A stretch of DNA of 64,000 nt. Source: Macrostomum hystrix (taxonomy: Eukaryota > Animalia > Platyhelminthes). The stretch spans positions 27,156,001 to 27,220,000 of the forward strand of contig CATNEN010000001.1 in assembly GCA_950097015.1 (NCBI GenBank), written 5' to 3'. Each line of letters starts with the position of its first letter. The first letter of the stretch is position 1. Of this stretch, positions 1 through 46,220 are shown piece by piece. The notes beneath the pieces were generated by a model. The model was not told the DNA's origin, searched no databases, and worked only from the letters and a program-made list of their open reading frames with translations. Made by a program: the position numbers and the translations under genes.

Positions 1-176
1 TAGAGTTGCTGTGAAGTTCTTTCCATTGTCCGTGGACATCTCCATCGGGATCCCAAAAGTACAGAACACTGTGAATAGCGGAGGTTTTGCTTGCATATTT
101 TATCTGCCTCCTTTTCCTAATCCATTCATATTGCACTATGCTGTTCAACCCCCGAATCATCATCCCCTCCGCCCAG

Positions 177-4561: not shown

Positions 4562-4761
4562 ACTGACTTTCTGTTTTAATTCTTTTCTGTGCGACTGATG
4601 ATTGATTGCAGTCAAAGAAAACATATTGGATGGGAAAGTCAGGAAAAATTGTATGTCTGGTCAGAATGACAGAAATAACTGAAATTTATAAAAGGCATGA
4701 TGAAAAATAATTAAAGTTATTAAGCATTCTTTTTTCTCTGTACATTTTCTCTCACTTGCAG

Positions 4762-6566
4762 ACAGCGATGACCTGGTCAATATGTTGGATGCCAGGCAGT
4801 TCATTCTCGATGAGACTTCTGACTATTTAAAACAACTTCTGCGTTCATGGGCACTGTCACAAAATCCGACAACATCATCTGTGAATGACTTGCTGCAGCG
4901 TCTGAATAGCAGGTTTCCACAACTTCCTCGGGACTACCGCAGCCTGTTGTCAACACCCCGAACTCTTTCTCTACGCTGTGTGCAGCCTGGAAACTATTTC
5001 CATTTTGGGTTAGCTGCAGGGTTGAAGTTTGTTTTGTCTTGTTTGGACGTAAGCATAAACAGCCTAAAGTTAGATCTCTTCCTGGACGGTGCTCAGGTGT
5101 TTGACAGCACGCAGATTACAATGTGGCCCATCATTGGCCGGCTTCATGGGATTGTTAAATCGGAGTTTCTAATTGGACTTTATTGTGGGAAGCACAAGCC
5201 AAAAAGCGCTAAAGAATTCCTCAGCGAATTGATCGACGAGCTTTCAAATCTCAAGGCAAATGGGTTGAAGATAAATGAGGAATCCTGTCCTATTCCTTTT
5301 GTCGTTGGAATGATAATGTGTGATAGTCCTGCGCGTAGCTTTATTCGAGGGACAAAAGCCTGCTGAGGCTACTCAGGCTGCGACAAGTGCCTCGTTGAAG
5401 GCGAGTACAAAAACAGAAAAGTCTGCTTTTGTGACTCGGATGCCACATTGCGCAACGATCGCGATTTTCGGTCAGGAGTGTATGACGATACGCATGTACT
5501 AACTGCAAGTCCGTTTTTGTCTTTAGCGAGTGTTGATATGGTTTGGAGCTTACCTCTGGATCCGATGCACCTAATTTACGAGGGAGCCGTTTTTAAGTGC
5601 ATAAAAAGTTTGACTTCAGCTGCGGTCCCATATCGTACCAGTGCAGCAGCCATGCGAGCTATGGATGCCGATTTGGTGAGCTTTAGCAGTTTCATCCCTC
5701 GAGACTTTTCGCGCAAGCCGCGACCAACGTCCATTATCGGCTGCTGGAAGGCAACTGAATTCAGACTGTTCGTCTTGTACCTTGCACCAGTCGTGCTAAA
5801 GCCTCATCTTCCCGATTGTATGTACGAGCTGCTTCTGAGTTTGCACACCATTGCCTTCCTAATGTCACACCCGCGGTGCTACGAATTTTGCGAATACGCT
5901 GAAACGTTGGCGAAGTGGTTCGTCCGCCAATGTAGGTCGGCATGGGGCGACGATTTCATTGTGCACACAATACATGCGCTGATCCACATTCCAGACGAGG
6001 TGCGTATGCATGGTCCACTGGAGCAATTCAGCTGTTTTTGGGGGGAGAATTTTCTCCAGTTCATTGGAAAGTACTGCCGTAGCTCCAACCATTGTCTCGA
6101 GCAGGTTGTTAAGCGCGTGAAGGAGAGGGATGTCACTTGCGGTCTGTTCCCAAAGCATTGTACCACGACGGCAGTTTCTTTGAGCGCTCAACTTAATTCG
6201 TTGCCGGACGAGATGCATGGGCTAAGAGTGCTGACTTCTCACACAAGTGCCAATCTGAAGGAGAAAAATACAATTATTACTGTGCACGAACCCGACTGCT
6301 TCGTGTTTCTGTCTGATGGTACTCCGGCGAAGATTGAGTTCATCCTAAATACCGACAATGGAATAGTCCTTCTGTGCCTCCCGTTCTTTGGTATGGGCGC
6401 ATAGTACAATTCCACGATTGATTCAGCGTCGATCAATATTGTCATCTTCGGTGGCATTTCCGAGACCGTGCGGCGAGTCAAGCTGCACGAGGTGCTTTCC
6501 AAGGCCATGGTTTTGCATTTGAGGGGAAAGCATTACGCGTTTCCCATCCTGCATACGATAACTTAA
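4762..6566 (+). pseudogene. EnSpm/CACTA (CMC)-type DDE transposase with two in-frame stops
   Basis: One reading frame with nonsense codons at 5364 and 6402. Motifs: LDG..F....MWPI, CDSPAR, GYSGCDKC, LRNDRDF, LDPMHLIYEG, WKATEFR, H.LIHIPD, HGPL..FSCF..ENF, C-terminal FPILH. Splice acceptor at 4760-4761. Confidence 0.85.
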
Positions 6567-6865
6567 GGGCGCAGGAAAGGTGAATTACGAGTAGCTGGTG
6601 AATCAACTGCACCAGGCAGCTTAGAAATAGCCCTGCTTCAAAGTAATCTACAGTGTATGTACTCGTAGTTTATTGTAGTATCATTAAAATTAGCATTTTA
6701 CGGTGCGTTAACGCTATGTCGTTGCAGCCTATATGTTACATTGCTATATGACTTACTTGATTTAGCGGCAGGGAGCCTCCATGACGGACGCAGCGAGGAG
6801 GCGGCTGATGCCGCCCATATCGCTAACCCCTGGCAGCCAGACAGCCTCCAGCGAGGCGGTGCCGC

Positions 6866-7251
6866 TCAGGGTGGTCCGTCGGTCGATTCCGCCGCGCGAT
6901 ATTCCTCGCCATAGGCTGGGAAGAAATCAGCTCGGCCGGTATCCCGGAGGAAGTGGGCGAGCTGTGGGATGTTCTCGGGCGAGCAGGCTTCGGCGAGAGT
7001 CTGTGCCGGCCCGAGATGTTTTAGCCTAGCCCGGGTGAAGGCCGGGCAGTGGCAGATGAAATGCTCTGCATTTTCGCGTCCGGAGCAGCAGAAGGGACAC
7101 GTTTCCTCAGGCACGTGGCCTTGAAGGTAGCGGTGTCTGGTGAAGCAGCCATGTCCCGAAAGAGCCATAGTGACTGCTCTTAGGTCTCTGCGGTTAAGCC
7201 TGAGTAAGGCCTTACGCAGGTTACTAGAGGGGGTTGGCACGCAGCCCTGGA
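6866..7251 (-). pseudogene. LINE ORF2 C-terminal region with zinc finger, cut off by a stop and a frameshift
   Basis: LSGHGCFTRH and CPFCCSGRENAEHFICHCPAF. TAG in place of Q in CR(Q)SR, plus a 1-nt shift near 7235-7250. Confidence 0.75.
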
Positions 7252-8772
7252 CTAGCGACAGTTCAGGGTGCTGGACCACCTCCTCCGGTGCTGGGTCTCC
7301 ATCCAGCAGTTGATGCTGGAGTTGACAACTGAGATGGGGATCGGGGACTCCGGGCCCGGGCCCATCAGGGAGCTGGCTGCTCCAGCCTTAGCAAGCTGGT
7401 CCGCCATCTCATTCCCTGTGAACCCGGCATGCCCAGGGATCCACAGCAGCTCCACCTTGTTAGACTGCGCCAACCCGTTTAACTGGGTGTTGCAGTCCAA
7501 GGTGGTTCTGGAGCGAGAGGTGCAGCGGCTGAGGGCCTTGAGGGCTGCTTGACTGTCGGAGTGAAAAAAGATCCTCCGACCAGCCAGCTGCCTCTGGCGC
7601 AGCTCAACCGCACAGAAGCTGATGGCGAGCACTTCGTTTTGGAAAACGTTTTGGCGAGACGACTGGGCCCTGCCCCCAGTCCTAACCTCGGGGTCCGAGG
7701 ACCCTTCAGTGTCCGGTACGGTGGTGGGCCCGGTCTGACCTCGAGTTTTATCTGCCTCGAAGGCGAAGATTTTGGTCTTCCACAGACCAATGCAGATGTT
7801 GGCGCCATCTGGGTATCGGCGTGTCCATTGCTCGGACAGGCCCAGAATGGCGGTGAACCCGGTGCCATCGGGGCGCAGGATCGTGCGGTGCACGATCAGG
7901 CCCGCTGTCGGCAGCTCCCGGTTCATCGCGATGAGGCCCATGCGGAGGTCCTCAGCGCTGGTGACGACACTTTTCGCCGGGACGAAAATGCGGTGTCGCT
8001 TGGTCTTTGGTGGCTCGTTCTCCCGGAGGAAGTCGAGGCCAGCCGCCCAGCTCTGCGTGGGCAGCAACTCAAGGAGCCGCCGCCCTGATTCCGCGTCGCC
8101 GGGCCAGACGACGAAGCACGATTCCCTGGTAGCGCTTGCACCGACCGCCAGGGGCTCGCCCTTCAGTTGAAGTTGCCACAGCATAGCATCTATGTTGCGG
8201 CAAATGTTGCTGAGCTGTTCGCTGCTCAGCCTTTTTCCGTCTCTGCCGGTGATGACAACGGCAGGTTGCCTACGTGCGATGGCGGCGTAGGTGGCATGTG
8301 GTCCCGGGCCCTGTCCGGTGGCGACCCCACCCTCGGGATCAGCGTCGGCGGTGGGCACAGGGCCCTCTGCCTCCGCTTCTCCTTCAGGCCGAGCCGCCGT
8401 CCGGATGGGCGCCGGGACCTCCTTGGCCCGCGACCCTGGCCTCGGGGCGTCGTGGGCTCCGCCCCGTGCAGGAGCCTGGGCAGGAGGCGCAAGGCCCCCC
8501 GCCCCAGCCCCCGCCCTAGGCAGAGCCCCTTCGGCCCCTCTGGCCTGGGCCCGGTCCTCGGTCGATGGAGCCGGCTTGCCGTGGGCCATTAAGCGCCTAC
8601 GACGCTTTGCCGCTCCAGAGGTTGTGGAGCGCTTAGCGCCCCGGTCATCGCGCGAGTTGGGCAGCGCGGCATTTGTGGCGGTCGCGGGGCCAGCTAGCCC
8701 GGGCGCCGCAGCGTGTATGGCCTCGGGCACCATGGTGTCCTCGGCCGGAGCAGTAGGAAGGCTGGAAGCCAT
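7252..8772 (-). CDS. ORF1 (gag-like, DUF4780-like) fused in frame to RNase H
   Basis: RNase H motifs VFQNEVLAI, FHSDSQAAL and WIPGHAGFTGNEMADQLAK directly follow an Ala/Pro-rich ORF1-like region. First ATG at 8772. Confidence 0.75.
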   Translation of the reverse strand: MASSLPTAPAEDTMVPEAIHAAAPGLAGPATATNAALPNSRDDRGAKRSTTSGAAKRRRRLMAHGKPAPSTEDRAQARGAEGALPRAGAGAGGLAPPAQAPARGGAHDAPRPGSRAKEVPAPIRTAARPEGEAEAEGPVPTADADPEGGVATGQGPGPHATYAAIARRQPAVVITGRDGKRLSSEQLSNICRNIDAMLWQLQLKGEPLAVGASATRESCFVVWPGDAESGRRLLELLPTQSWAAGLDFLRENEPPKTKRHRIFVPAKSVVTSAEDLRMGLIAMNRELPTAGLIVHRTILRPDGTGFTAILGLSEQWTRRYPDGANICIGLWKTKIFAFEADKTRGQTGPTTVPDTEGSSDPEVRTGGRAQSSRQNVFQNEVLAISFCAVELRQRQLAGRRIFFHSDSQAALKALSRCTSRSRTTLDCNTQLNGLAQSNKVELLWIPGHAGFTGNEMADQLAKAGAASSLMGPGPESPIPISVVNSSINCWMETQHRRRWSSTLNCR

Positions 8773-9028
8773 TTGAAGCTGCAATGAGGAGAGGGGCTTC
8801 CTGTAGACACAGGCAGGAATAACCCGCTCAGCCGCGATCCCAAAGCTGAGCGGGGGCAGCCAAAAAAGTCAAGTTACAACCCGGGGTGGGATGCCAGGAC
8901 TACCGGGAGGGTGGGATGCCAGGACTACCGGGAGGAACCGTAGGAGGCCAGACTACTCCCCGGTCAAGCGTCCATCAGCATGGTCAACACTGGGACATTA
9001 GAGGGCGCTATTTGGCCAGCGCCGGGGC

Positions 9029-10754: not shown

Positions 10755-11278
10755 AGTTGATATTGCAATGTTGCTGCAATGTAAATTAAAGCCGAGGGAA
10801 AAATTATTGAATGTTGCAACGTCAACGTCGTCAACGTATGCAGCAATGTTGTGCAACGTTGATTTGCAATATTGATTTTTGTTGACATGTCAATGTTGCA
10901 AGTCAAAATATCAACATTGCTGCAATATTTCTGCAATCTAACTGGCGCTGTGGGTATAACATCCATACATTTCATCCGGTTTTCATCCGGAATTGGCTCC
11001 GGTTTCTCATCCGGCTGTAACATCCATACATTTCATCCGGTTTTCATCCGGAATTGGCTCCGCTGTCCCATCCGGCTTCCTCCGCATTACTTATCGGGCA
11101 ATTACCGGACGCATGGCCGGATACCAAACCGGATAAGCGTCATATTTTCTCCACTTTCATCCGTTTTGTAAACTTTTCGTCCGGTTTTTGTCCGTTTTTT
11201 TGCATGTCAATTTGCTATTCGTGCCGGATTAAACTCCGGACAACGCATCAGATAAAAGACGGCTAACTTCAGCCAGGC
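10755..11278. repeat. Clusters of short palindromic subterminal-type motifs (TTGCTGCAA/CAACGTTG; CATCCGG/CCGGAT), probably EnSpm-type ends
   Basis: Many direct and inverted copies of these motifs, with an abrupt junction to Gypsy integrase at about 11280. Confidence 0.45.
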
Positions 11279-11281
11279 GGG

Positions 11282-13330
11282 ACGAACCAAGGGACCAACT
11301 TCACCGGATCCGCCTTCAAGAAGTTTTGCGACTTGTACGGGATCCGACACACTACCACCACGCCGTACAACCCAGCTTCCAATGGACAAGTCGAGAACCT
11401 CAACAAACAGCTGAAGAGTGTGCTGACTTGCCTCCTAGAGCGAGACCACCGCGACTGGGACACCTTCCTCCCAGCCTGCTTGATGGCGCTGCGCTCCGCT
11501 GTCCATCCGGTGACGGGCTATACGCCGCATTTCCTAGTCTACGGCAGAGAGTTTCGTCTACCGATTGACAACACCCTAAAGAAGCTGCTCGAGTACGACA
11601 ACCTGCCTGAGTATGTCAAAGACTTCCAACATCGACTCGACGAAGCAACCGAGCTAGCCAAAAACCGACTGGCCCTACATCAGCAGCTACGAGACGAGCA
11701 CTACTCAAGCCTACCAGCAGCGAAGACGCTCAAGCCTGGCGATCTAGTTTTCATCAACAATCCAACGCTACAACCAGACGAGGCGGCTAAATTTCACCGT
11801 CCTCGGAAAGCCCTTTATGAAGTCGTTGAGCAAAAGGGTGAGGTGGTTTACAAGATCAAACGTAAATTACCCAACCCCCGAGCCCGACGCGATGAGCAGG
11901 TTGTTCACAGACGGAACCTGCTGTTGGTCCCAAGCGCCGACTACGCTCTCTCTGATCCGGAACTCGACGCTAGACCGCAACAACGACGCCGAGGCTCTGC
12001 AGACGGCCCAGGACCCGCGACCCTGCCGACTGTCTGTGAAGGCCCGGATGACTACGACGACGAGGAAGAAGAGCGACCCCTCCGGCGGTGGTACTTCCGA
12101 CCACCATCGACTATGGAGATCCCGCCTGGAGAAGGCCCCACGACAGCACCAGCTAATCAGGCGAGTAATCCTCGGCATGATCCACTGCCGTATGGTGATT
12201 GCCAGGTTTCTTTGTCTGAAATGAGTGTGTCTGTTCCTGCACTTTCTCCCTCTGTTTTTCTTCCACCTCCTGAGCCTCCCTCTCTTGGTGCTCAGAAAGG
12301 GGACGTTTCTTTGCCAATTGATCCCGACGAACATGAACCTCTGGGTTTTCGTAGGCCCTTAAGGGATCGTAGGCAGCTTGATCGGCTAGTTTTAGACCCT
12401 AGGGCGAAAACCTATGTTAGCGGCGTAGCCCGCAGAGTTCGTCGCCTTTTTCCCCGTTCCAGCCTAGCGATGCACTCATCAAAGAGGCAACATTCTTCGG
12501 CGGCTGATGATGAGCCGTCGGGAAGGCGCCGACCGCGAACGGAAGCCACACCGATCGTGGTGCGGGCCATTGGCGCAGCAGCTGGCCAATTCGAGCCTTT
12601 TGGCGGCCCGAGGAACGCTCCTGGCATCCCGGTCCACCTCCGTGTAGGCCACCCGGCGGTGCGTCGCGTGGCACACGAAAACGTGCCGGTCGCTAGCCTT
12701 CGTCAGCGTGATGGCCTGCCCAATCGTCGGCTGTCTAACTCTGCCTCTCGGCCCATGCCACCTACGGAAACCGTCGACCCCGTGTTGCATGGGATCCGCA
12801 TGATTCGCAGGGCCAAGGACACGGCGGCGGCAACCTCGGCAGCAGTTCGTCGACCTCTGTCATTGCTGCACCTAAACATCGAGCCAGTTGTGTCGGTGAG
12901 CAGCACGCTCAACTCTCTTACCCAGTTGCAAGTAAAAATTGAAGCGGTGACGCCGCCACGGACGCCACCCTCGCCTGTACCGGGCATGTTGCTGCCTACC
13001 GCACCGCAAAAAATTTGTGACGCCAGCACCTCGACTGAGGCCGACAACGACACAGCCCAGCTGCGCGACACTGCTGCGCGAGAACTGGCAGCATTGATCT
13101 CCGACGCGGCTCGATTCGACGTCACGTTGGATTTCTATAGCTGGCCTATGCTTCGAGCTGTCCAGGCGTTGACAGTGGCTGGTCAACAAGCCATCTTGGA
13201 CGCCGCCTTGGCCATAGCTCGTCCCGTGCTGCAGCCCGCTCGCCATCCGGTCGCTGCATGGGCGGCCGCCGAGGCCTTCGCCAAAGCGGTGCTTACCCGC
13301 CCGAAGGTGCCAGACGCCCATTTTTTCTGA
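11282..13330 (+). CDS. Gypsy integrase C-terminal part with a long in-frame extension (5' truncated)
   Basis: TNQGTNF (catalytic D changed to N), TTPYNPASNGQVE, W...LP, TGYTPHFLVYGRE, GPY-like ALYEVVEQKGEVVYKI, VVHRRNL. Confidence 0.85.
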   Translation, partial: TNQGTNFTGSAFKKFCDLYGIRHTTTTPYNPASNGQVENLNKQLKSVLTCLLERDHRDWDTFLPACLMALRSAVHPVTGYTPHFLVYGREFRLPIDNTLKKLLEYDNLPEYVKDFQHRLDEATELAKNRLALHQQLRDEHYSSLPAAKTLKPGDLVFINNPTLQPDEAAKFHRPRKALYEVVEQKGEVVYKIKRKLPNPRARRDEQVVHRRNLLLVPSADYALSDPELDARPQQRRRGSADGPGPATLPTVCEGPDDYDDEEEERPLRRWYFRPPSTMEIPPGEGPTTAPANQASNPRHDPLPYGDCQVSLSEMSVSVPALSPSVFLPPPEPPSLGAQKGDVSLPIDPDEHEPLGFRRPLRDRRQLDRLVLDPRAKTYVSGVARRVRRLFPRSSLAMHSSKRQHSSAADDEPSGRRRPRTEATPIVVRAIGAAAGQFEPFGGPRNAPGIPVHLRVGHPAVRRVAHENVPVASLRQRDGLPNRRLSNSASRPMPPTETVDPVLHGIRMIRRAKDTAAATSAAVRRPLSLLHLNIEPVVSVSSTLNSLTQLQVKIEAVTPPRTPPSPVPGMLLPTAPQKICDASTSTEADNDTAQLRDTAARELAALISDAARFDVTLDFYSWPMLRAVQALTVAGQQAILDAALAIARPVLQPARHPVAAWAAAEAFAKAVLTRPKVPDAHFF

Positions 13331-13431
13331 ATGGCGTGGAGTTCGCCCATTGGCACTGAGCCATCACTGTGAAAAAGGGCATCCCTCTGGCCATCTTGGG
13401 GGCTCTGCCGAAATTTTGATTAAATGCGCGG

Positions 13432-14006
13432 TGTGACGCTGAAATTTCATATTTAGTGTGCCATGACTCATGACCCGCATTAAAACTCTAACCCTTTCTC
13501 TTTTCTTTTCTCCCTTTTCCTGCTCTGCTGAATAATTTTAGTGTGCTAATCACAGATTTTGGGCTTGCACGCTCATTGGCTGGGACTGTTTCCGAGAGTT
13601 ATCGATCGCCCTGTTTTACAGTCTGTCTAGTTAATTTAACTAAGGGCTTTAGGCCCGCTCGCGCCCCATTCCCTCTCGCCACCAGTCCTCCTTGTCCTAG
13701 CCTACCTGGTGCTCCTGTTCCTGTTTAACACTGTCTAGTGCCACCAGTTTCTGTCCGCCACACCTCGCTGCCATTCTCTCAACTCGCCTTCGCGCAGCTC
13801 TTATTATCATTACCTTTGCGTGTCATCACCCTTTGTACATTTTGAGCTCCTGCACCTGACTTGTATTAATCCACTGCTTGTTGTGCGCCTCAGTGTTCGC
13901 AAATAAATATTAAGTGCTACCGCTACACCGAATTCTACTCTGTGTGAACTAACTTGGAATCGCTGAGTTATCATCGCCGGACTTGGTTATTTCAAGAATC
14001 GTCACA
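13432..14006 (+). repeat. LTR (TGTGACG...CGTCACA), chimeric and shared between two elements
   Basis: 7-bp terminal inverted repeat. 13560-14006 is nearly identical to 18803-19248, but the first 128 bp differ. AATAAA at about 13902. Confidence 0.85.
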
Positions 14007-14012
14007 CTATTT

Positions 14013-14029
14013 TGGAGGTCCCACCGAGA
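14013..14029 (+). promoter_or_regulatory. Primer binding site complementary to tRNA-Gln 3' end
   Basis: TGGAGGTCCCACCGAGA, 6 nt after the LTR, is the reverse complement of TCTCGGTGGGACCTCCA. Confidence 0.85.
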
Positions 14030-14870
14030 CTCAGACTCTGCACTGCCGGACGCACGACGGTGTTAGCGAGCTCCTGTCTATCGCCTACTGTCTACTGCCT
14101 GTCATCTGTACTATTGTCTATCGCCTGCCTATTGCCTATCGTCTGCCTATTGCCTATCATCTGCTATTACGTGCCGCCTGTATCGATTGTTCATCACCAC
14201 TACCGTCGGCTATTACCTACTGTTTGTCGAGTCTTAAAACGGCCCTTTTAAGGACACCGGGCTGTTTGACCCTATTCACGGCCACCGTCGGTCCATTGTT
14301 CATCGCCTGTTGCCATCGGTTCGCCTGGGGATACCGGCTCGTCGGTCATGGTGATATCAGCAGCTGCACCTGCGGTGACGGCGATCTGGACGATCGCCCA
14401 GTCCCGGATTCGAGCGTGCCAAGCGTGCCGAGCGTGTCGAGCGTGAGCCCGCGGCCGATCAAGGAAGCCGACCGGAACCGAAGCACCCGGTGCGCACTCG
14501 TCGATCCGGTCCCGGCGCCGAGTACGTCGCCCGCTGACAACAGTAGCGTTGAGCTTGACTCCGCGTTCAGGTTACGCTGTGCGCCGATTTTTTTTGTGTA
14601 GGGACTATACCGCCTGACTTGATTAGCTGGGGTGGTTTGCGTGATAGGAATCTCCCTATTAGGCCGTGGTTTTGTGCCCCAGTCAGGCATTTAAGTATTA
14701 GGACGCACTCTCATTCTCTCGCCTTCTCGCCCTGTCCACCCGCCATCGACTTCCGCCGCTTGGCAAAATCGTTTTTGCTGGAATCTTCTTTCGCTCACTC
14801 TGCTCACCTTGCCTAACTGCAGGCCGCTCGTGCCTGACCTTGCTCTTGCACTCTTCGTAGCCGTTTCGCC

Positions 14871-16529
14871 ATGTCCGATAATGGCGACGATCAGGTCCAA
14901 GCCCCACCACAACTCGGTGGAGGCGAAATTGATGCCGACCCTGCCGAAGTAAATTCCATAGGGTCCACCGATCAGCCTGAGGGCGCTGTCGGTGTCAGTG
15001 AGCACGTCTTACTTGCTCAGACTCTGGCTTCTCTTCATAAGATGATAGAGGCTCGTCTTACTGCCCACTCACCGGCGACATCCAGCCTAGATAACTCCTC
15101 GCCGTCAGTGGTACCGAAGCAACCTGAGATTCGCCTTCGGCCGCCACCGGCTTTCAATCCCAAGATGAAATTTGACACTTGGGAGGCTCAGCTCATGTCG
15201 TATATAGCCACCTGCCGTGTCCCAGAGGACCAGCGCTCTGCTGTCCTAGTGTCTCTACTGGCACCCGAGTGTCAGGAAGTCTTCCTCAACTACAGCTGTG
15301 ACCAATTGCCATTCGAATCCGCCATTCGTGTGCTTAGGGAAAGGTACACGGATGCCAAGCAAAAGGATAAGGCATATGTCGAACTAGTTGCTGCTTCTCA
15401 AAGCCATTCGGAACTTATGTCCAAGTTCTTCGATAGATTAGTCTCGTATACCAGATTAGCGGGCCTCTCGCTCACCGAAGCGAAACCCCTGATCAAAGCT
15501 CGGTTCTGTCATGGCCTATGTGACAAGGGGCTTGCCGAAAAGCTTCTCTTGTGGGATCAGGAGACAGATAGTGCGGCCTCTGCTGAAGAACTCATGCAGA
15601 AAGCCAAGGACCTCGTTGGGGTCTACCAGCTCCTAAATATGCCATCTACTATAGCCAGAATTCGCACCGCTGAACCAGATGCCGAAAAAAGGGCTATGGA
15701 ACAACGTGTCGCTGAATTAGAAAGGTTAGTTCACCAACAAGCTGAGGAAATTAAACGAGCTGACCAGACTAGGTTGCCGCCCGTGCAACAGATAGAGCGT
15801 ATGTATCAGACTACACAGAATAATCTCTCACCGCCAAGGCGTCGCCTTGCTCAGCCGCAGCGTAATCTCTCGCCGAAGAGAGAACGACCTTATTATCAGC
15901 CACAGATAAACTCTCGCCCTCCTCGGGCATGCCATAGATGCGGTCGGACGGGCCACTTGGTCGCCGACTGCCCTTCATCACCGCCTAGAATCATTCCTCC
16001 TAATCCAAATAAGGGGAACCAAGGTTCGAAACCGATCCGTGAATCAGGTCTCACGGAGATCGGGACCATAGCTTCTTGGTCATCAAACTTTGGGTTCATC
16101 CAATCCGAACAGCTGCCAGAACAACTGTTCGTCCACGGCAGCCAGCTCTCACCTGAATTAAGACAGCTAGCCGATCAGCATCGTCTGGTGGGAACTAGGG
16201 TGTGCTACCAGAGACAGGTAGACCCCGGTCGCCAACACGATAAGGCTTGTAATGTACAACACCAACCGAAGGATGGCGATCCTCAATGTAGACATTGGGA
16301 TGCTATTCCAGACAAATTTGAATCTAGCTATTTCGTGCAACTAGAAGTAGGTGATTCTAAAATACTAGCTTGTCTAGACTCAGGTGCCACTGCTAGCGCC
16401 ATGGGTGTAGACTTGCGAGATAGATTGGTCGCCGCCGATCCAGTCAACAATGTATTTATGCCTAGTACTTACACCAGCCTTCAATGGATCTACAACCGAA
16501 ATCCTAGGAACGTTGCGTTGCGAAATTAA
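14871..16529 (+). CDS. Gag (capsid-like, coiled coil, CCHC knuckle) + cold-shock domain + protease N-half
   Basis: CHRCGRTGHLVADC (15930-15971). CSD: GTIASW..NFGFI...LFVH...VGTRVCY...DKACNV (about 16056-16260). Protease CLDSGA. Confidence 0.85.
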   Translation: MSDNGDDQVQAPPQLGGGEIDADPAEVNSIGSTDQPEGAVGVSEHVLLAQTLASLHKMIEARLTAHSPATSSLDNSSPSVVPKQPEIRLRPPPAFNPKMKFDTWEAQLMSYIATCRVPEDQRSAVLVSLLAPECQEVFLNYSCDQLPFESAIRVLRERYTDAKQKDKAYVELVAASQSHSELMSKFFDRLVSYTRLAGLSLTEAKPLIKARFCHGLCDKGLAEKLLLWDQETDSAASAEELMQKAKDLVGVYQLLNMPSTIARIRTAEPDAEKRAMEQRVAELERLVHQQAEEIKRADQTRLPPVQQIERMYQTTQNNLSPPRRRLAQPQRNLSPKRERPYYQPQINSRPPRACHRCGRTGHLVADCPSSPPRIIPPNPNKGNQGSKPIRESGLTEIGTIASWSSNFGFIQSEQLPEQLFVHGSQLSPELRQLADQHRLVGTRVCYQRQVDPGRQHDKACNVQHQPKDGDPQCRHWDAIPDKFESSYFVQLEVGDSKILACLDSGATASAMGVDLRDRLVAADPVNNVFMPSTYTSLQWIYNRNPRNVALRN

Positions 16530-17778
16530 ACTAGGGAAACTAACGAAAATACATGTATTTCTAGTGATGGCCGATGCCACTGCCGAAGCCCTTCTGGGCA
16601 TAGACTTCCTTCAGAGTTTCGAGATGATGTTAGATTTCAACTCAAATTGCGTTATGGTAGCCGGTACATCGGTGCCCATCATTGAGAAAGATAATGAGAC
16701 CCTCCAAGTTCGATCTTTCGAAACTCTTTCGCTAGCAAGGGTCGCTGAATGCGATTTCGCTGTAAAATATCGGCCAGGCGCAGAGCGCGTGAATGCCGAT
16801 GCTCTCAATAGACTGCCGACATTCCGGCCCGACCATTCCGATTGTCCCACTTACAGTCGGATTCCAGAATTCCAAGAGAGGTTCAAGCCCAAGGACCCTA
16901 AGTCCAGGGTACCTAAGGAACCCACAGTCCAAATGCGCCACATAAGCGTAAGAACCACGTGCTGTGATGCCACGTGCCAGACCGACACCATCGCGCTGCC
17001 CGCCATCGTGGTGCCCACGCCGAAACCTTTGCTGTCGCCCGAGTCCAATGTCCGATCTGTTGAACCTTCAACCGTTACCGCTTATCCGCAACCTAAACCC
17101 ACTACTGCTAATAACAAGACCGAGACCAAGACCGCCGCTAGACGCCTTGTAGTTACGGAAACTGCAGACGTTAGCCAATGTGAACTTCAGTAACGTAGCC
17201 AACTGAACCATTGCGGAATCACCAAGACGATGTCCGCTCTGAAAGCTCGCTTTGACAATTCTAACCTAGATACGATTACCAAGCGAGTCCCCGCAGAGTG
17301 TAACATTGGTGCGCGGGCGAAAAAGTCAAAGCTCAAAAGGCAAAGGAAAAAGAAAAAGAAGCAGCCAAAAGCCAATCGCTATGGACAAGCCAACACCGCT
17401 GGGTCCTCTTCAAACACACCTAGCCAATCAGACTCTAAGCTATCATCTGACGACTTCAATTTACTCACTCTGCCACACCAGACCACACCTGTAGCCCCGA
17501 CCTCACGTCTTCCGGAAAGAGAGGCGGATGCTGTCGCTGAAACCCTCCCTTCGACCCCTTCGTCGGGAGAGTCTGGAACTGAAACCAGCACCGGAACCAC
17601 TTCCAGTACAACCTCTAGCCCCAGTGCTAGCTCAGAGCAGGAAGAGTTGGTGGAAGAAACTTCTGAATCGGCTGTGTCCGAACCAGTGCCTGCAGTTGAA
17701 GTCAGGACTAGATCAGGACGATTAGTCCGCCCACCAATCAGGTACCGCCCGTACCAAGTCAAACCGCGCTCCTGTTAG
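16470..17778 (+). pseudogene. Protease C-half, RNase H tail remnant and low-complexity tail (frameshifted; stop at 17191)
   Basis: ALLGIDFL; DFAVKYRPG..VNADALNRLP; terminal RTRSGRLVRPPIRY motif typical of pol ends. Confidence 0.7.
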
Positions 17779-18586
17779 GTCTCCGACCTAATTCAGTGGC
17801 TGGGTAGCCAGCACTGAAGGGCCAGTTGTGGCCCTGGGCATTAAACTACCTCCTTCGGCATTAGCAGGCCGACGGTCTCCTGTGGGAAAAGGGAAAACCA
17901 GCGCTGCTGGTCGGCCCTCGAAAGCCGGAGCGCCATGCAGGCGTTTCTCAGCGAGCAAACACATCCAGTCAGCCACACACAGTCGGTCACAAAGCACACA
18001 AGACACCAAGCCACAAGCCAAAGTAAACAAGAAACCAAACCAAGCCAAATCAAGTAACAAAGCCACAAATCAACCCAAGTCACGTAATAGTTCAACATCC
18101 GGTAGGCGCACGCCAACGTGTGCGATCGTGATGCGGTTTTCGCCTCATGGCCTCCTCTGTCATGGCCTCCTCTATCTTTGCCTCCTCTACCCTTGTTCAT
18201 TGCATATCATTTCACCGTCACTTGCTTCACCCTGCTTTTCGCATAGGTATTTGCGCGTGTACTTTGTAATCTTTGTAGTATCCAGCCATGCTGTGCGAAG
18301 CGTGCATCCTCTCCGTTTATGTGGCCCTGTGAGTTGGACCGCAACTCACGCCGCGCCATTCTCACAATTTTTGGTTGTGTCATTTAATCTAGGTTTTGTA
18401 ATGTTGTAATTTTTTGGGTAATCATAATCTATAGTTATATGGGTAGATCCACGCGCCCATATCTGGCCTTGACCTTAGTAATGTGAACTTATGCCTCGCT
18501 CTGTAATACCATTTTCCTCCTCGCTCGCTGTGTTTACCCGTCGCTCGCCATTTTGCTGGTACTCTTTCTTTTTTGGAAGAGGCGAG

Positions 18587-19248
18587 TGTGACGTTGTCAC
18601 TGTCACTGTGAATTGTAACTTACGTACGAATTCCTAATATGTAATAACTTGGGCCGTTTAAATAATGTCTTTTTGCTACCTTCAATTTATCCAGTTCATA
18701 TAATTATTATTCTGTGCGCGCTACTGTAAGTAGACGTGGATGCACACCGCGCTGCCCTAGCTTATTTTCTACTAATGTCTCAAGCTATTCTGCCCTGTCC
18801 AGTGGGCTTGCACGCTCATTGGCTGGGACTGTTTCCGAGAGTTATCTATCGCCCTGTTTTACAGTCTGTCTAGTTAATTTAACTAAGGGCTTTAGGCCCG
18901 CTCGCGCCCCATTCCCTCTCGCCACCAGTCCTCCTTGTCCTAGCCTACCTGGTGCTCCTGTTCCTGTTTAACACTGTCTAGTGCCACCAGTTTCTGTCCG
19001 CCACACCTCGCTGCCATTCTCTCAACTCGCCTTCGCGCCGCTCTCATTATCATTACCTTTGCGTGTCATCACCCTTTGTACTTTTGAGCTCCTGCACCTG
19101 ACTTGTATTAATCCACTGCTTGTTGTGCGCCTCAGTGTTCGCAAATAAATATTAAGTGCTACCGCTACACCGAATTCTACTCTGTGTGAACTAACTTGGA
19201 ATCGCTGAGTTATCATCGCCGGACTTGGTTATTTCAAGAATCGTCCCA
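18587..19248 (+). repeat. 3' LTR
   Basis: Starts TGTGACG after the PPT and ends CGTCCCA. Its 3' ~446 bp match the upstream LTR. Confidence 0.88.
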
Positions 19249-19249
19249 C

Positions 19250-19906
19250 AACGGTCTTATCCTGAAGGTAATCAATTCACAACGAATGCAAGAAGAGACA
19301 ATTCGTTTTTTTATGTCTACAGGTAAGTATAGCCACTTCTAAACAATTTCCTTGCAAGTTTCTTCCAGCGAGCAACAACCTAAAAGAATATTTTCGAAAC
19401 GCTTCTAGATCTGCAGTGCGCTGCGCTGCCTGCACAGCCGACAGCCGCCCGTGATCCGCAGAGACGTCAAATGCAGTAGCATCATTGTGCTTAGTGACAA
19501 CAGGCGAGTCAAACTGATTGACCTTGGTCTTTCAATCAAGCTGGAGCAGTCAGTCAGCCACCTCACGGCCTCCCAATGTCACCAAAGGGCACCTTGCACA
19601 TATTGGCACCAGAGCTGCTGGCACCAGACGATGACAGCTACCCCCACTACAGCAGAGTCGCACATCTGGATGTACGCCCTGCCTCACGCCAGTTTTAACA
19701 ACTTGGTGGTTTTGGCGAGAGTGCTTGATAAAAAGAGGGCGCCCGTAGTTCCCAAAGACTGTTCAGCTGAGCTGAAGCACTTCTACAAACGCTGTACTAG
19801 ACGGACACCCAGGAAGAGAAGCTCAGCGACGACAGAACTGCTGCAGCATGCGTTCCTGACTGAAAAGACAACCCGGCGACACGCTCTTAGATTCGGAAGA
19901 AACTAA
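19250..19906 (+). pseudogene. Ser/Thr protein kinase fragment (degenerate)
   Basis: ICSALRCLHSRQPPVIRRDVKCSSI..VKLIDLGLS (HRD and DFG altered); later CSAELKHF..RC...P.KR...ELLQHAFL. Confidence 0.65.
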
Positions 19907-20499
19907 AAACTGGAGCAATTACTACATTTGCTGTTTGCATGGTATAATCAGTAATTTAATAATTTTTGCGTAAATCATTTCTGTAAATAAAGGAAATTCA
20001 CGGCACGACATGAGGTATGAATGTAATCTACGTATCGATTTTTGTGATTTTATGTCGAAGAGGGAATTACCAGCGTTGTGAAGCGTCTGTGACTCAATTA
20101 GCTTCGTCTCTAGGGTTATTAGTTAAGAATTCAGATAAACCATCAGCTCCGGACCAACCCTACGACCGGACCAGGGCTATTAGTCGAAAGCGCCGTCGAC
20201 CACCTGCAAACCTAATACCTGATGTGGCTGCCTCTAGCAGTTCTAATTCTGTAACCAGTGTGCAGGCTGAAGATGCAGTACCGGCAGTCATTTTTTAAGG
20301 CGAGGAAGTCTTAGTTGTTGCTTGGTGCTTAAGACAAAGACGTGGCATGTTAATTTAAAAAAAATACTTTGTTAAGACTACTGCACTGTTAACTATGGGA
20401 AATCATATACGAAAGTCAAAAGTCAAAATATTCTTCGAACATACTTTCGAAGTCTATTATCTAAGTCTATCGTTCAAAGTCTAAGTCTATCGTCTTTAG

Positions 20500-22440
20500 T
20501 CCCGTCTATCGAACACTTTTTCACTAAGCTAAAGAATGCTAAGTTCGCTAAAGTGGACTTGCGATCCGCATATTGGCAAATAGCATAAGACGAATCCGCC
20601 GAAGAACTGTCCGTAATCAACACATCACGAGGGCTGTATCGCGTCAAGAGACTACATTCCGATCTTAAAGGCGTCTTATCTATCAGGACGACGGTATTGT
20701 CTTCACTGAGAACACTGACGCGCTCAGAAAGCGATTAGCTTCTGTAAAAACCCGACTTGTGTATGTCATCATAAATGAAAGCAAGTGCATCGACCTCTGC
20801 GACGAGATCTCCTTTCTCAGCTTTAAAATATCGGCTGCTGGAATAGCCAGCCAGGCGAACGCCTAGTAGACAAGATAAGACACGTACACGTACAACAAAG
20901 AAGGAAGTGGAGCAGTTATTGGCTTGGTGAATTATTTTGGTCGTCTAATTCCGAACTTCTCTTTTAAAGTCGCGCCATTGAATCGCATCAAGAAGAGAAC
21001 CGAGGAGTTCTGCTGGTCTTTTCCAGTTCGCACGAGCTTTTGAGGATCTCAAACACGAAATTTCTTCACGGACTGTTGTGCAGCCATACAGTCTTGAGAA
21101 GGAGGCCATTCTCACGACGGACGCCTCTAAAGAAGACCTAGCTGGTGTCCTCACTCAGGATGGGCATCCTGTCATATACATTTCAAGAACCATTTCCTCA
21201 ACAGAGGTAAACTATTCCAATATAGAGCGCGAAGCGCTCGCCATCTTCTGGGCAGTTCACCGTCTGCAACACTATCTGCAGGGTCGAAAATTCATCATCC
21301 ACACCGACCACCAACCTCTATTGCGCCTCTTCGGTGGCAGTCTCCCGTTAAACTCGGCGCATCGGCAGTATCGGCGATGTTTTTAATGCAGTTTAATGCA
21401 CTTTCACATTGAGTATCTTCCAGGATTAAAGATCCCCCACGCTGATGCGCTCTTAAGACTCCAATTCAATGAGCCTAGTTTAGAGCCCAGCAACTTTTCA
21501 GCGATTGATTGCTTCACCTTTGAGTCTCCGACGATCAGTCCACAGCGCAATGTATCGGAAATCGAGTCGGACATGCTTCTTAAGTGCATCACCCATCGCA
21601 TCAGGTCCGGTGATTGGAGCAACTGCTCCCAGTCAGAATTGGTCTTTAAAAAGGCCTCGGAAACTTTAACTATAGAGAATGGTCTTTCATACATGCGCCG
21701 CCGGGTGTTAATCGCATTAAGACTTAGGAGAGAGGCCTTCAATGCGGTGCATGACATGCGCTCTGGTGCTGCTGCTGCCTATACTCATCTAGCCCAGACC
21801 TGCTGGTGGCCTGGAATGCAACGAGACGTTGAGCAATACGTACACTAATGCCCGACATGCAATGAGTTAAGACCTCGATTAGGAAAATCTCTTGATGTTT
21901 GGCCTGGAGCTACTGCTCCAGAGAGTGAACATAGATTAGGCGTTCGAGCCTGAATTGGGCAACATTCTCATCATCGTTTGCGTTTTCTGGCTGGATTGAG
22001 GCATTTCCGACTAAAGACAGGTCTGCCGACTGTCACCAGCTCTTTGCGCGAGTATTTACTCGATTCGGCGTCCCTGAATTAGTTGTCTCTGACAACGGTA
22101 CAGAATTAAGGTCCGCCCCTTGCTACAATGGCTCGAATGAAATAGGGCTCAAAATATGGAGATTCCACCGTACTCTCAACAGTCGAATGGTTTGACCGAG
22201 CGCTATGTGCAAACAGAAAAACGAGCACTACGGACATAGACGCAACGGCTCACTCACTCTAATTTCATCGCATTTTTGTAGAAAGTGCTGCTGCATCACC
22301 GCAACTCATCAACGGCACGCGGCTAGACGCCTGCAGAACTCGTATTTGGACGACGCCTTTGTGTACCTGTCATTAGAACCTTCCAACAGGGCGACATCGT
22401 GCGCTACAAGCCCAGATCTGATGCTCAATGCTCCCGAGTA
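20500..22440 (+). pseudogene. Decayed Gypsy pol (RT, RNase H, integrase fragments)
   Basis: KVDLRSAYWQI, LTTDAS, NYSNIEREALAI, HTDHQPL, HADAL, WWPGMQRDV, VSDNGTE, SNGLTER; many stops and frameshifts. Confidence 0.85.
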
Positions 22441-27771: not shown

Positions 27772-28718
27772 GGGATCCAAACATCTATCCTTGTTCATAC
27801 TGCATTGACTTAACTATCTTTCTTGAGAAACACCTAATTTCCTACAACTGGTTAATGGATACATAAAGAAGATTCAAGTCCCAACTGATGATTTGAATGC
27901 TGCTAGGCCTAATATAGCAGCAAACCTGTTTCTTTGAAACCTACATGATTAAGCTGTCAATGGTGATTTTGCTATTCCTATAAGTTCTATGGCCATTATA
28001 AGTATAATATCAAACAATTAATTGATCTTAATGAGGGATTTCTACACTAATATGTAGACTGTTAACCTAAACTCCTTGCTTTTTGTTCAATCTCTATAGC
28101 TTAGTTATATTTGTTTGTTGCTGACAGTTGCCTTTTATGCACACCTTTAACAATGTTTCTATGCCGATGCATGCTTGCCATGTCTACCACACGAATTGGA
28201 TCAGACATTAATAGGGGTCCATGAGACTTGCCCGCAGGCGAACTGCCCGCCGAGATTTGCCCGCAGGAGATTTGCCCGTCGAGATTTGCCCGCCGAGGTT
28301 TGCCCGCAGAGATGTGCCCGCAGTGCATTCTGCCCGCAGGAGATTTGCCCGTCGAGATTTGCCCGTCGAGATTTGCCCGTCGAGATTTGCCTGTCGAGAT
28401 TTTCCCGCAGAGATTTTCCCGTCGAGATTTTCCCGCAGAGATTTGCCCGCAGAGATTTGCCCGCAGAGATTTGCCCGCAGAGATTTGCCCGCAGAGATTT
28501 TCCCGCAATGCAGTTTTAATCTTGCAAAAATCGACTTATACTTATCGAAATTATTTACCTGCCAGATTTCAACCGTGTGAATCTGAAACTCTTACTGCCG
28601 CAAATGCATAAGATATTTCTTTGGCATTTCGCAGACACCTCAAATTTCCTTTCTGCTAAATTACTGTAGCCTGTTCTATAATCTTTTGTAGCAGCAATTT
28701 TTTGCTGGTGCCTGGTGG

Positions 28719-28926
28719 TAGGGATGGTAAAATCCCGGCTAGTTTCCAATCCCAGGATTGTCGGGTTCGGGATATTCCTGTCCAACTCCCATAAAATCCC
28801 CAGCATTTTCAGTCCCAGCAAATCCCGAAAAATTGAAATCCCGCTGAATGGTGGGCAATTTTAAGTCCTGAGATTGGAATTCCAGGTGTTTGCTCTCAAA
28901 TCCCGGTCCCGGTATTGGAATCTCTA
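28719..28926. mobile_element. hAT-type MITE inserted at the inner edge of the left MULE TIR
   Basis: TAGGGATG...AATCTCTA ends, ATCCC/GGGAT subterminal motifs, flanked by CCTGGTGG / GCTGGTGG. Confidence 0.7.
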
Positions 28927-29644
28927 GCTGGTGGAGCGCTGTCTGTTTCAAATTCACATGTCAGCCGCCTGGATTTTATCACCTCGATCTGCTCAACCAC
29001 CGAACGACAAATCCAGTAAATAAGCCATGGGGTCCTATATGGTGCATGTCGGGGACCCCACGACATTTTATAATCTGGCCCTTACATAGAGTATGAGTAT
29101 GCAGAGCATTTTCTAAAAACATCGCCTTGTGCATGTGGCGACGGGCAGCTGGCTTATCTATATAACAAATTTAATGAAATTTAAAGACCTGCTTATTAAC
29201 TCCTCGCTAAAGATCCAGAAAGCAGTGTAAACAAAGTCTGATGTGATTCTTTCTCGCTAATTCTATCCTGGACCCCTATATCTCAATTCCCAGTCTTCGA
29301 TAAAATGTCCATAAAATCTGTCTGGATTTCATTCTCTCTGGGTCTGGGTCTGGGTCTGGGTCTCTCATTCTCTCTTCTCTTTCTGATTGGCTGCAGGCAC
29401 CCCACCCCTTTAGCCTCCTTCTTGTCTTGCGTGCCCCTCATTCCTTTGATCGCGCCTCCTAACCCAACCCCTCTCTTTGCCCACCCCTCCTTTCTCTCAA
29501 CCCCTTGTTATCTCCTATAATATATAAATACACTGCCCTTCCTTACTGCTTAGTGTATTCAACTTTAGTCTGGTCAAGTTAGACTGCGACAACTCTACAT
29601 ATATAAAGTGAATTTCAAGACAACGTTAATAACAAGCAGACCAC

Positions 29645-31087
29645 ATGGAAGCAGCTCCTCCCATCGCTGTGCGCTTTAGTGCAACAATTCGTGGGAAGCG
29701 CAAAGCAGCCTGCGAAGGCTACTACTTTACACTTGAAAGAACTAGCCTGGTCGACGAAGAGGTGTCATTTTGGCAGTGTGAAGAACGGCGCTTGGGATCA
29801 TGTCCTGCTCGAATCCACATCCGGAATGGCTTTAAAGTGCGACAGCTGAATGACCACAATCACGGACCTGACGGCTCTCGATTCCAAGTTCTTGAGGCTC
29901 TTCGGGAGATTAAATCGGATGCCAGGAACACCGTGAATTCGACGGCAAATATCGTCATGGAACACACAAATGGGCTGTCTGAGTGTGCAGGCATAGCCCT
30001 TCCATCTCAAAGTGCATTAAAGCGGCAAGTTCAAGATGTTCGTCAAACGCACCAAGGTCTTCCAGTACAGCCGCTCAACCGAGCCGAGCTCATTATACCT
30101 GAAGAATTTCAATTCAACAACGGAGCACTGTTTCTGCTGCATGACTCCGGACAGGACAACAATCGAATTTTAATCTTCGGTAGCAAGGATAACATTCAAG
30201 CCCTGCAATTGGCGACAGATTTCTTCTCGGACGGCACATTCGATGCCTCGCCGCCACTGTTCGCTCAACTGGTGACAGTGCATGCCGAACTTCAAGGCTT
30301 CATAAGACCACTCATCTACGCATTGCTACCCAACAAGACCGAAGCAACGTACTGTCGATTTTACGAGGCTCTGCATCAATTGGCGCCGAACATGAGGCTA
30401 CTTCGCTGGATGTCAGATTTTGAGCGAGCTAACATGAATGCTGTTCAGCATGTCTTTGGCATCGAGTCAACAGGCTGTCTATTTCACCTCGTTCAGTGCG
30501 TGTACAGAAGAGCAGTTGCTGAGGGATTAAAGCGTCAGATTGAAGAAGAAGATGGCGAGATGTCCGTCTGGCTGCGTTGCCTTTCTGCTTTGGCCTTTGT
30601 GCCTATTAATAGTGTTCCAGCAGCATTTGATGAGTTAATAATGCTGCCTGACTTTCCTGCGGAGATGGCTTCAACAGCAGACTATTTTGAAGCCCAGTGG
30701 GTCGGCCATCGACTTCCTGGCGGAGGAAGACGGCAGCCTCGATTCTCACCTTCAATTTGGAATGTTCGTGAGCGAACTTTGAATGGACTTCATCGCACGA
30801 ACAACGCAGTTGAAGCCTGGCATAGGAGGTTCCAGTCAATTCTGGGTTGCAGCAATCCGAATGTTTTTCGGCTCATGAAGGACCTCAAAAAGGAAGTCGA
30901 ACACCAGGCACTGCTGATGCAGCGAGCCAACGCTGGTGAAGCACCGAAGGAGCGGAAGAGATACGTGCAGAGCAACGCGATGCTTCTTCGCGTCACGCAG
31001 CGTTGGAACGTCGAAGGTGGCGGTCTGCCTGCTGACTTTCCTTTGCGTTCCTACCTGAGGGGCATCGCTCACCATTTAAAGAAGTGA
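29645..31087 (+). CDS. FLYWCH zinc finger + MULE DDE transposase (intact, 480 aa)
   Basis: FWQC...CPAR...HNH; SDGTF; YALLPNKTEATY; MSDFE; GCLFH; RTNNAVEAWH. Confidence 0.93.
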   Translation: MEAAPPIAVRFSATIRGKRKAACEGYYFTLERTSLVDEEVSFWQCEERRLGSCPARIHIRNGFKVRQLNDHNHGPDGSRFQVLEALREIKSDARNTVNSTANIVMEHTNGLSECAGIALPSQSALKRQVQDVRQTHQGLPVQPLNRAELIIPEEFQFNNGALFLLHDSGQDNNRILIFGSKDNIQALQLATDFFSDGTFDASPPLFAQLVTVHAELQGFIRPLIYALLPNKTEATYCRFYEALHQLAPNMRLLRWMSDFERANMNAVQHVFGIESTGCLFHLVQCVYRRAVAEGLKRQIEEEDGEMSVWLRCLSALAFVPINSVPAAFDELIMLPDFPAEMASTADYFEAQWVGHRLPGGGRRQPRFSPSIWNVRERTLNGLHRTNNAVEAWHRRFQSILGCSNPNVFRLMKDLKKEVEHQALLMQRANAGEAPKERKRYVQSNAMLLRVTQRWNVEGGGLPADFPLRSYLRGIAHHLKK

Positions 31088-46171: not shown

Positions 46172-46220
46172 ATTCTTCTAAATTGGGCGTAGGATTTAGT
46201 TTAGATTATGCCAGACTGTC

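What the first reader, a model, noticed from the sequence alone, without database searches (positions are those of the whole stretch)
15930..16390. Cold-shock domain embedded in retrotransposon Gag beside the CCHC knuckle (Lin28-like domain pair)
Seen: a full five-strand CSD signature (GTIASW, NFGFI = RNP1-like, LFVH = RNP2-like, VGTRVCY, KACNV) lies in frame between the zinc knuckle and the protease. Established: CSDs are RNA chaperones, and CSD plus CCHC is the Lin28 domain set; Gypsy Gag does not normally carry a CSD. Inference: a captured RNA chaperone for genome packaging or primer annealing, or a counter-defence against small-RNA pathways. I know of no description of this, but could not search.
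Basis: partly seen in the sequence, partly recalled or inferred. Interest (0 to 1): 0.8.

Follow-up and report, generated by a model that had tools for sequence, protein, structure and literature searches.

The report
Cold-shock domain in flatworm retrotransposon Gag
A small group of flatworm jumping genes carries a cold-shock domain, as well conserved as the capsid, between the zinc knuckle and the protease, where it likely acts as an extra grip on the element's own RNA; similar captures are published for bird retroviruses, but I found none described for this class of element.

Summary
Observation confirmed. Window 16053-16268 encodes a cold-shock domain (CSD; Pfam PF00313, 29.8 bits, cut-off 27), in frame between the Gag CCHC knuckle and the protease of a young, internally deleted Ty3/Gypsy copy (13560-19248). 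It is not a one-off. Three further Macrostomum lignano Gag-Pol families (41-69% identical) carry it in the same slot, in 22 of 22 proteins that span knuckle and protease. It is as conserved as the capsid (55% versus 55%; flanking linkers 25%), so it is under selection. No other lineage with this layout turned up in four protein searches. The 'Lin28-like' reading fails: the order is reversed, there is one ordinary Gag knuckle, and the model lies nearer Unr/CSDE1 (Z 12.6) than Lin28 (Z 8.2). Best reading: an accessory single-stranded-RNA-binding module of the nucleocapsid acting on the element's own RNA (inferred, 0.5); translation control is the main rival. Precedent exists: 46 bird endogenous retroviruses carry CSDs, some between gag and protease (PMC12287698). 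This scan also noted CSDs in other retroelements on other DNA, including a copia element. New variant of a known kind; interest 0.5.

The parts
13560..14006 (+). 5' LTR, lacking its first ~215 nt; ends CGTCACA
   Evidence: 443 of 448 nt identical to the 3' LTR; the first 215 nt of the 3' LTR have no second copy in the window
14013..14029 (+). Primer-binding site (starts TGG, 6 nt after the LTR); looks complementary to a tRNA-Gln 3' end (recalled, not tested)
   Evidence: sequence
14871..16529 (+). Gag-CSD-protease(N-half) ORF, 552 aa (P0001); open through Gag and CSD, leaves the protease frame near 16470
15123..15635 (+). Capsid-like block (PNMA-like Pfam PF14893 hit, E 1.2e-04, below cut-off)
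15930..15971 (+). Single CCHC zinc knuckle (PF00098, above cut-off)
15972..16052 (+). Basic, proline-rich linker between knuckle and CSD (pI 9-12 in all four families, sequence not conserved)
16053..16268 (+). Cold-shock domain, aa 395-466; RNP1 FGFI and RNP2 F-x-H kept; helix between strands 3 and 4 in the model
16269..16322 (+). Acidic linker to the protease (pI 4-4.8 in all four families); likely carries the Gag/protease cleavage site (inferred)
16323..16713 (+). Aspartic protease (DSG at 16377-16385), split over two frames near 16470
16729..17778 (+). Pol remnant: end of the RNase H region, part of the integrase zinc finger (with a stop) and the low-complexity tail; RT, RNase H core and integrase core are missing
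   Evidence: tblastn against P0002; other copies hold 1767 more letters at 16712/16730
18575..18586 (+). Polypurine tract
18587..19248 (+). 3' LTR, about 662 nt, starts TGTGACG; no canonical heat-shock element

Best explanation
A clade of Macrostomum Ty3/Gypsy retrotransposons carries a conserved cold-shock domain at the C-terminal end of Gag, which likely serves as a second single-stranded-RNA-binding module of the nucleocapsid and likely acts on the element's own RNA. Shown: position, frame, conservation in four families, and the predicted fold. Inferred: one ancient capture of an Unr/CSDE1-like CSD. Inferred: because Gag and Pol form one unbroken ORF in the full-length relatives, every Gag molecule would carry the CSD. 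Inferred: the basic linker, knuckle and CSD together would bind and loosen genomic RNA during particle assembly and primer annealing, the jobs known for Ty3 nucleocapsid. The window copy is a young, pol-deleted member that cannot move by itself.
For: Same slot in 22 of 22 Macrostomum proteins that contain both knuckle and protease motif, out of 32 examined. Mean pairwise identity over four families: CSD 0.55, capsid 0.55, knuckle 0.57, linkers 0.25; CSD versus linkers P 2.5e-09, treating columns as independent. CSD and capsid distances among three families run in parallel (51/42/52 versus 51/45/51%), as expected from inheritance together. The three full-length families form one RT clade (support 1.0, stem 0.57) whose next relatives are at most about 49% identical, and they keep protease, RT and integrase motifs. 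RNP1 [YF]GFI and RNP2 F-x-H are kept in all four families; these residues form the nucleic-acid-binding face of CSDs (PMC7825780, passages). Ty3 NC has one knuckle and promotes primer annealing, dimerisation and packaging (PMC4974528, passages). Human Unr associates with HIV-1 Gag through NC in an RNA-dependent way (PMC9413769, abstract). Among sister copies, 3 of 4 changed CSD codons are silent versus 2 of 5 in the preceding linker (too few to test).
Against: No binding or expression data. The CSD of this copy is not basic (pI 6.35; others 7.9-9.6). The conserved Trp aligns with a Leu of Unr, not with the exposed base-stacking Trp of bacterial Csp (register recalled), and the aromatic after the RNP2 His is kept in only 1 of 4 families, so affinity may be low. 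The strict Prosite RNP2 form [YF][YF]H is met by 1 of 4. Other Gypsy elements replicate without a CSD. The CSD may be cut off the nucleocapsid by the protease. The HIV precedent points to translation as much as to packaging.
Confidence: 0.5

Rival explanations
1. The CSD controls translation or stability of the element's mRNA, like Unr acting on internal ribosome entry sites: Gag carries its own copy of a host cofactor and uses it to boost translation or to switch the RNA from translation to packaging.
For: Nearest structures are Unr/CSDE1 domains: 8 of the 12 rows with Z of 8 or more, rank 1 in Foldseek, best though not significant in sequence search (E 0.08). Unr stimulates HIV-1 IRES translation and Gag enhances this (PMC9413769, abstract). 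The leader from LTR end to ATG is long, about 860 nt.
Against: Unr works with several CSDs; this is a single one. No IRES is shown; Rfam finds nothing in 13400-19400. The position beside the knuckle fits a nucleocapsid role more simply.
Confidence: 0.27
2. The domain keeps the OB fold as a structural spacer or protein-contact module (particle assembly, protease regulation, granule targeting) and does not bind RNA in a way that matters.
For: Near-neutral charge in the window copy. Two canonical aromatics are poorly kept. Non-RNA-binding CSDs exist in CSDE1 (PMC7825780, passage).
Against: The exposed RNP1 aromatics and RNP2 Phe and His are kept across families that differ at about half of their capsid residues.
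Confidence: 0.14
3. Lin28-like counter-defence: knuckle plus CSD binds small-RNA precursors and dampens piRNA or miRNA silencing.
For: Both domain types occur in Lin28; Lin28A is among the structural hits (Z 8.2).
Against: Reversed order, one knuckle of ordinary Gag type, and a fold closer to Unr by more than 4 Z units. The domain evolves at the capsid's pace with no sign of fast change.
Confidence: 0.06
4. A recent chance insertion of host sequence in one dead copy, with no function.
For: The window copy is defective in pol.
Against: Present in four families, three of them with full-length open Gag-Pol, at capsid-level conservation.
Confidence: 0.03

Closest known systems
CSD-bearing bird endogenous retroviruses (He et al. 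2025, PMC12287698; abstract, passages and part of Supplementary Table 6 seen)
   Same: A PF00313 domain captured by an LTR retroelement; 46 ERVs, several independent captures. In the one table part I read (8 of 65), two corvid ERVs have the CSD between Gag_p24 and the retropepsin, the same slot as here.
   Different: Retroviridae, not Ty3/Gypsy. Positions vary. The table gives no reading frame and the passages seen report no test of conservation. Their Pfam E-values are much stronger (1e-14 to 1e-25), as for recent captures; this CSD is diverged, in frame, and fixed across a clade.
Ty3/Gypsy (Metaviridae) elements of Macrostomum lignano (Ustyantsev et al. 2025, PMC12801592; first part of text, passages, supplements searched) and yeast Ty3
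   Same: LTRs, PBS, PPT, Gag with one CCHC knuckle, PR-RT-RH-IN order in the relatives; Ty3 Gag-Pol is the best solved-structure hit (E 2e-93).
   Different: Extra CSD between knuckle and protease. That paper and its five supplements do not mention a CSD. Which of its clades (Mag, CsRN1, Gmr1/Osvaldo, Mdg3) holds this group was not tested.
Unr/CSDE1 cold-shock domains (PDB 4qqb, 1wfq, 2yty)
   Same: Best structural match (Z 12.6, rmsd 1.6 A, 72 residues); gap-free alignment over strands 1-3.
   Different: Only about 25% identity; one domain instead of an array; helix inserted between strands 3 and 4; descent from Unr is not shown.
Lin28
   Same: CSD and CCHC knuckle in one chain.
   Different: Order reversed, one knuckle, weaker structural match (Z 8.2).
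Burro giant Gypsy elements of planarians (Arkhipova and Yushenova 2019, PMC6431247; passages; authors recalled)
   Same: Flatworm Gypsy polyproteins with captured host-type domains.
   Different: Their extra domains concern apoptosis and ubiquitination; the text has no 'cold' or 'CSD'.

Membership tests
Ty3/Gypsy LTR retrotransposon | Two LTRs bounded TG...CA with PBS and PPT | tested here: met
   the 5' LTR has lost its start
Ty3/Gypsy LTR retrotransposon | Domain order Gag-PR-RT-RH-IN | tested here: met
   full-length relatives P0002, P0005, P0006; the window's remnants are collinear with P0002
Ty3/Gypsy LTR retrotransposon | RT of Ty3/Gypsy type | tested here: met
   in the relatives: best PDB hit Ty3 Gag-Pol, E 2e-93; the window copy has no RT
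Ty3/Gypsy LTR retrotransposon | Target-site duplication | tested here: inconclusive
   5' end of the element is lost
Named Gypsy clade (Mag, CsRN1, Gmr1/Osvaldo, Mdg3) | RT groups with GyDB references | not testable with these tools
   no reference set available; the tree has no clade labels
Autonomous element (window copy) | Intact protease, RT, RNase H and integrase | tested here: not met
Cold-shock domain (PF00313) | Profile score above gathering cut-off | tested here: met
   29.8 bits versus 27 on the isolated domain; 24.2 on the whole ORF
Cold-shock domain (PF00313) | Five-stranded OB barrel of about 70 aa | tested here: met
   predicted model, Z 12.6 to 4qqb; the alignment used contained other CSDs
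Cold-shock domain (PF00313) | RNP1 [YF]-G-F-I | tested here: met
   4 of 4 families
Cold-shock domain (PF00313) | RNP2 [YF]-[YF]-H | tested here: inconclusive
   F-x-H in 4 of 4, strict form in 1 of 4
Cold-shock domain (PF00313) | Binds single-stranded RNA or DNA | not testable with these tools
   needs an assay
Lin28 | CSD N-terminal to two CCHC knuckles | tested here: not met
   one knuckle, before the CSD; Lin28 order recalled
Unr/CSDE1 | Array of several CSDs | tested here: not met
   one CSD per protein
Unr/CSDE1 | Domain descends from a CSDE1 repeat | tested here: inconclusive
   nearest by structure; the tree of 55 repeats has support 0.70 above the transposon clade and lacks animal Unr, YBX and Lin28 sequences

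The most novel reading that the evidence does not exclude
This Gypsy clade has built the host cofactor Unr's RNA-binding unit into its own Gag, making a knuckle-plus-CSD nucleocapsid. Together with bird retroviruses, and with the copia and other elements noted by this scan, it marks a recurrent, convergent upgrade of retroelement Gag that frees the element from a host cold-shock-domain protein.
Probability: 0.3. Interest if true: 0.7.

Novelty: new variant of a known kind. Interest (0 to 1): 0.5.

Why it matters
Fixed, long-kept additions to Gag are uncommon in LTR retrotransposons. Host CSD proteins are known partners of retroviral Gag (PMC9413769), and birds' retroviruses captured CSDs repeatedly (PMC12287698), but the passages read did not show whether those captures are kept in frame and selected. 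Here a CSD is fixed in frame across four diverged families at capsid-level conservation, in a flatworm with transgenic tools (PMC12801592). That makes 'why do retroelements keep picking up cold-shock domains?' testable with a small protein fragment.

Tried and rejected
No whole genome is held for this window, so copy number and solo LTRs were not counted. Word search with residues 340-530 among proteins of 303-966 aa: 0 hits among 908 candidates; relatives appeared only among longer proteins (5 of 7986). ESM Atlas: no usable hit for residues 345-530; for the CSD alone, leads at 0.85-0.86 to phage and bacterial CSD clusters, under the 0.9 mark. Single-sequence fold failed. Metagenome and viral contig scans: 309 and 68 pattern matches, none confirmed. 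No RNA holder was listed among 8 sequencing runs, which says nothing on expression. Rfam: 0 matches in the element; ARAGORN: no tRNA in the window. No canonical heat-shock element in the 3' LTR, so no link to the heat-induced families of PMC12801592. Dinoflagellate origin was considered: multi-CSD proteins (one named from Gymnodinium smaydae, most unnamed) share the inserted helix and score best against the transposon CSD profile (up to 31 bits versus 21 for a CSDE1-like protein). They were picked by a search with this very sequence that sums over repeats, and the tree is unresolved, so it stays open, not supported. An amplifying non-autonomous family was considered: contigs of the deleted form have about the depth of the unique flank in run X2 (105 versus 106), a weak hint of a single locus, and depth is no copy number. 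A CSD-only profile search of the Protein Data Bank was not obtained (one search used the whole-protein alignment and was filled by RT hits). Literature: ten full-text searches listed no paper on a CSD in Ty3/Gypsy Gag. Repbase, GyDB and the 2020 classification of M. lignano LTR elements (reference 16 of PMC12801592) could not be seen and may mention it.

Full report
1. Observation. The ORF at 14871-16529 (P0001, 552 aa) holds, in order, a PNMA-like capsid block, one CCHC knuckle (15930-15971), a cold-shock domain (16053-16268, aa 395-466) and the first half of an aspartic protease (DSG at 16377-16385). PF00313 scores 29.8 bits (cut-off 27, E 5.6e-07, model 4-64 of 66) on the isolated piece and 24.2 bits on the whole ORF. 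A model built on a 20-row alignment (pLDDT 88.7; five strands, one inserted helix) matches Drosophila Unr CSD1 best (Foldseek E 6.4e-06; Z 12.6, rmsd 1.6 A, 72 residues). Lin28A ranks 12th (Z 8.2). The alignment held 16 non-transposon CSD proteins, so the fold is not independent of that choice; a single-sequence fold failed. The Pfam hits are independent of it.

2. The element. Two LTRs agree at 443 of 448 nt, so the insertion is young. The full 3' LTR runs 18587-19248, after a polypurine tract. The 5' LTR lacks its first ~215 nt and abuts the tail of another Gypsy element. A TGG primer-binding site follows at 14013. Against the full-length relative P0002 the window copy changes frame inside the protease, and lacks RT, RNase H core and integrase core. 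Contigs of public DNA runs carry this deleted form with no differences (X1, X3 across 16572-17238) and also a longer sister form with 1767 more letters at 16712/16730. The deletion is therefore real, and longer relatives coexist. No canonical heat-shock element lies in the LTR.

3. Relatives. A search among long proteins gave 5 hits among 7986 candidates, all named Macrostomum lignano: P0002 (1921 aa, 69%), two gene models of the same family, P0005 (45%) and P0006 (41%). The host is therefore most likely a Macrostomum flatworm; P0001 itself is not in the collection. P0002, P0005 and P0006 are single Gag-PR-RT-RH-IN ORFs with PF00313 hits of 28.7, 21.8 and 20.6 bits at the same place and intact catalytic motifs. 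Of 32 proteins in these clusters, 22 contain both knuckle and protease motif, and all 22 have the CSD between them; the other 10 are partial or chimeric models. Mean pairwise identity across the four families: CSD 0.55, capsid 0.55, knuckle 0.57, protease N-half 0.66, linkers 0.25. CSD distances track capsid distances. The three RT-bearing families form one clade (FastTree support 1.0, stem 0.57; 118 of 120 sequences used, two dropped for short alignment).

4. Range. HMMER over 1.84 billion representatives gave 57 hits; the only two at E under 1e-30 are P0003 and P0005. The rest match either the CSD (multi-CSD proteins), the knuckle or the capsid; the capsid and knuckle hits have no CSD by my four-family profile. 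Of 117 other RT relatives (the best-listed of 3026), none scores above 10 bits with that profile. Only 21 of the 117 show a knuckle-protease junction, so 21 is the informative number, and their RTs are distant (at most about 49%). Metagenome and viral scans confirmed nothing. Within these limits the layout is confined to one Macrostomum clade; transposon proteins are poorly represented in such collections.

5. Mechanism. Shown: a CSD fixed in frame and conserved like the capsid, with RNP1 and the RNP2 Phe/His kept, preceded by a basic linker and followed by an acidic one in all four families. Established: CSDs bind single-stranded nucleic acid by stacking on these aromatics with little sequence choice (PMC7825780, passages). 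Ty3 NC, with one knuckle, drives primer annealing, dimerisation and packaging (PMC4974528, passages). Human Unr binds HIV-1 Gag through NC in an RNA-dependent way and raises IRES translation (PMC9413769, abstract only). Inferred: every Gag of these single-ORF elements carries the CSD, which adds a second RNA grip to the nucleocapsid and acts on the element's own RNA (0.5). Translation control is the main rival (0.27). A non-binding spacer gets 0.14: the window's CSD is near neutral (pI 6.35), its Trp aligns with a Leu of Unr, and the aromatic after the His is mostly lost. Lin28-like counter-defence gets 0.06. The donor is unresolved: Unr-type by structure, while multi-CSD proteins of probable dinoflagellate origin score best by profile (31 versus 21 bits), with a selection bias and an unresolved tree.

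6. What is known. CSD capture by LTR retroelements is in print: 46 bird ERVs, several captures, varied positions (PMC12287698, passages). In the one part of its Supplementary Table 6 that I read (8 of 65), two corvid ERVs have the CSD between Gag and protease, frame not given. The 2025 survey of M. lignano LTR elements (PMC12801592; first part of text, passages, five supplements searched) has no mention of CSD or cold shock. PMC6431247 and PMC8775202 (passages) have no 'cold' in their text; PMC11011659 likewise. Ten full-text searches (listings and abstract starts only) showed no CSD in Ty3/Gypsy Gag. UniRef auto-names one gene model 'CSD domain-containing protein', so the domain is machine-annotated. 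Repbase, GyDB and the 2020 Macrostomum classification were not seen. Earlier notes of this scan report CSDs in a copia element at the same junction, in a frog non-autonomous element and in tyrosine-recombinase elements; these are unchecked leads, and one gave me the bird paper.

7. Verdict. Real, conserved and apparently undescribed for Ty3/Gypsy, but a variant of a known theme, and not Lin28-like. Novelty: new variant of a known kind. Interest 0.5.

Noticed in passing
window 11267-13559: Integrase C-half and long tail of an unrelated Gypsy element (26% to P0002) run straight into the truncated 5' LTR at 13560; a contig of run X2 spans 13300-13589 with no difference, so the junction is real.
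   Followed up: partly
P0035, P0037, P0047, P0069, P0039, P0050, P0056: Proteins made of 5-8 cold-shock repeats, one named from the dinoflagellate Gymnodinium smaydae, share the inserted helix and the GT(I/V)xSW start with the transposon CSD.
   Followed up: partly
window 16572-17238: The same deleted form, with no differences, is in runs of both organism A (X1) and organism B (X3).
   Followed up: no
window 17779-18574: About 800 nt between pol remnant and PPT with no Pfam or Rfam match above cut-off; no envelope-like ORF seen.
   Followed up: partly
window 20499-22371 and 38813-39507: Two further, heavily decayed Gypsy pol remnants (tblastn).
   Followed up: no
window 28214-32436: 484-aa ORF (29633-31087, minus) that looks like a Mutator-type transposase (recalled), between long inverted repeats built of 14-nt units.
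   Followed up: no
window 32948-34892: Mariner-like transposase in two pieces (recalled motifs) between 216-nt inverted repeats.
   Followed up: no
window 75-1531: Pif1/Helitron-type helicase pieces (recalled motifs).
   Followed up: no
window 4704-8868: A CACTA-like transposase remnant (4704-6404, plus) and a non-LTR-like ORF with an RNase H end (6866-8868, minus); labels recalled.
   Followed up: no
window 40211-46176: Three tandem copies of a gene with a WSC-like domain (label recalled), spaced about 2.85 kb.
   Followed up: no
window 50056-51030: Single-exon AIG1/GIMAP-like GTPase ORF (label recalled).
   Followed up: no
window 61878-62999: 373-aa tyrosine-recombinase-like ORF, Crypton type (label recalled).
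   Followed up: no
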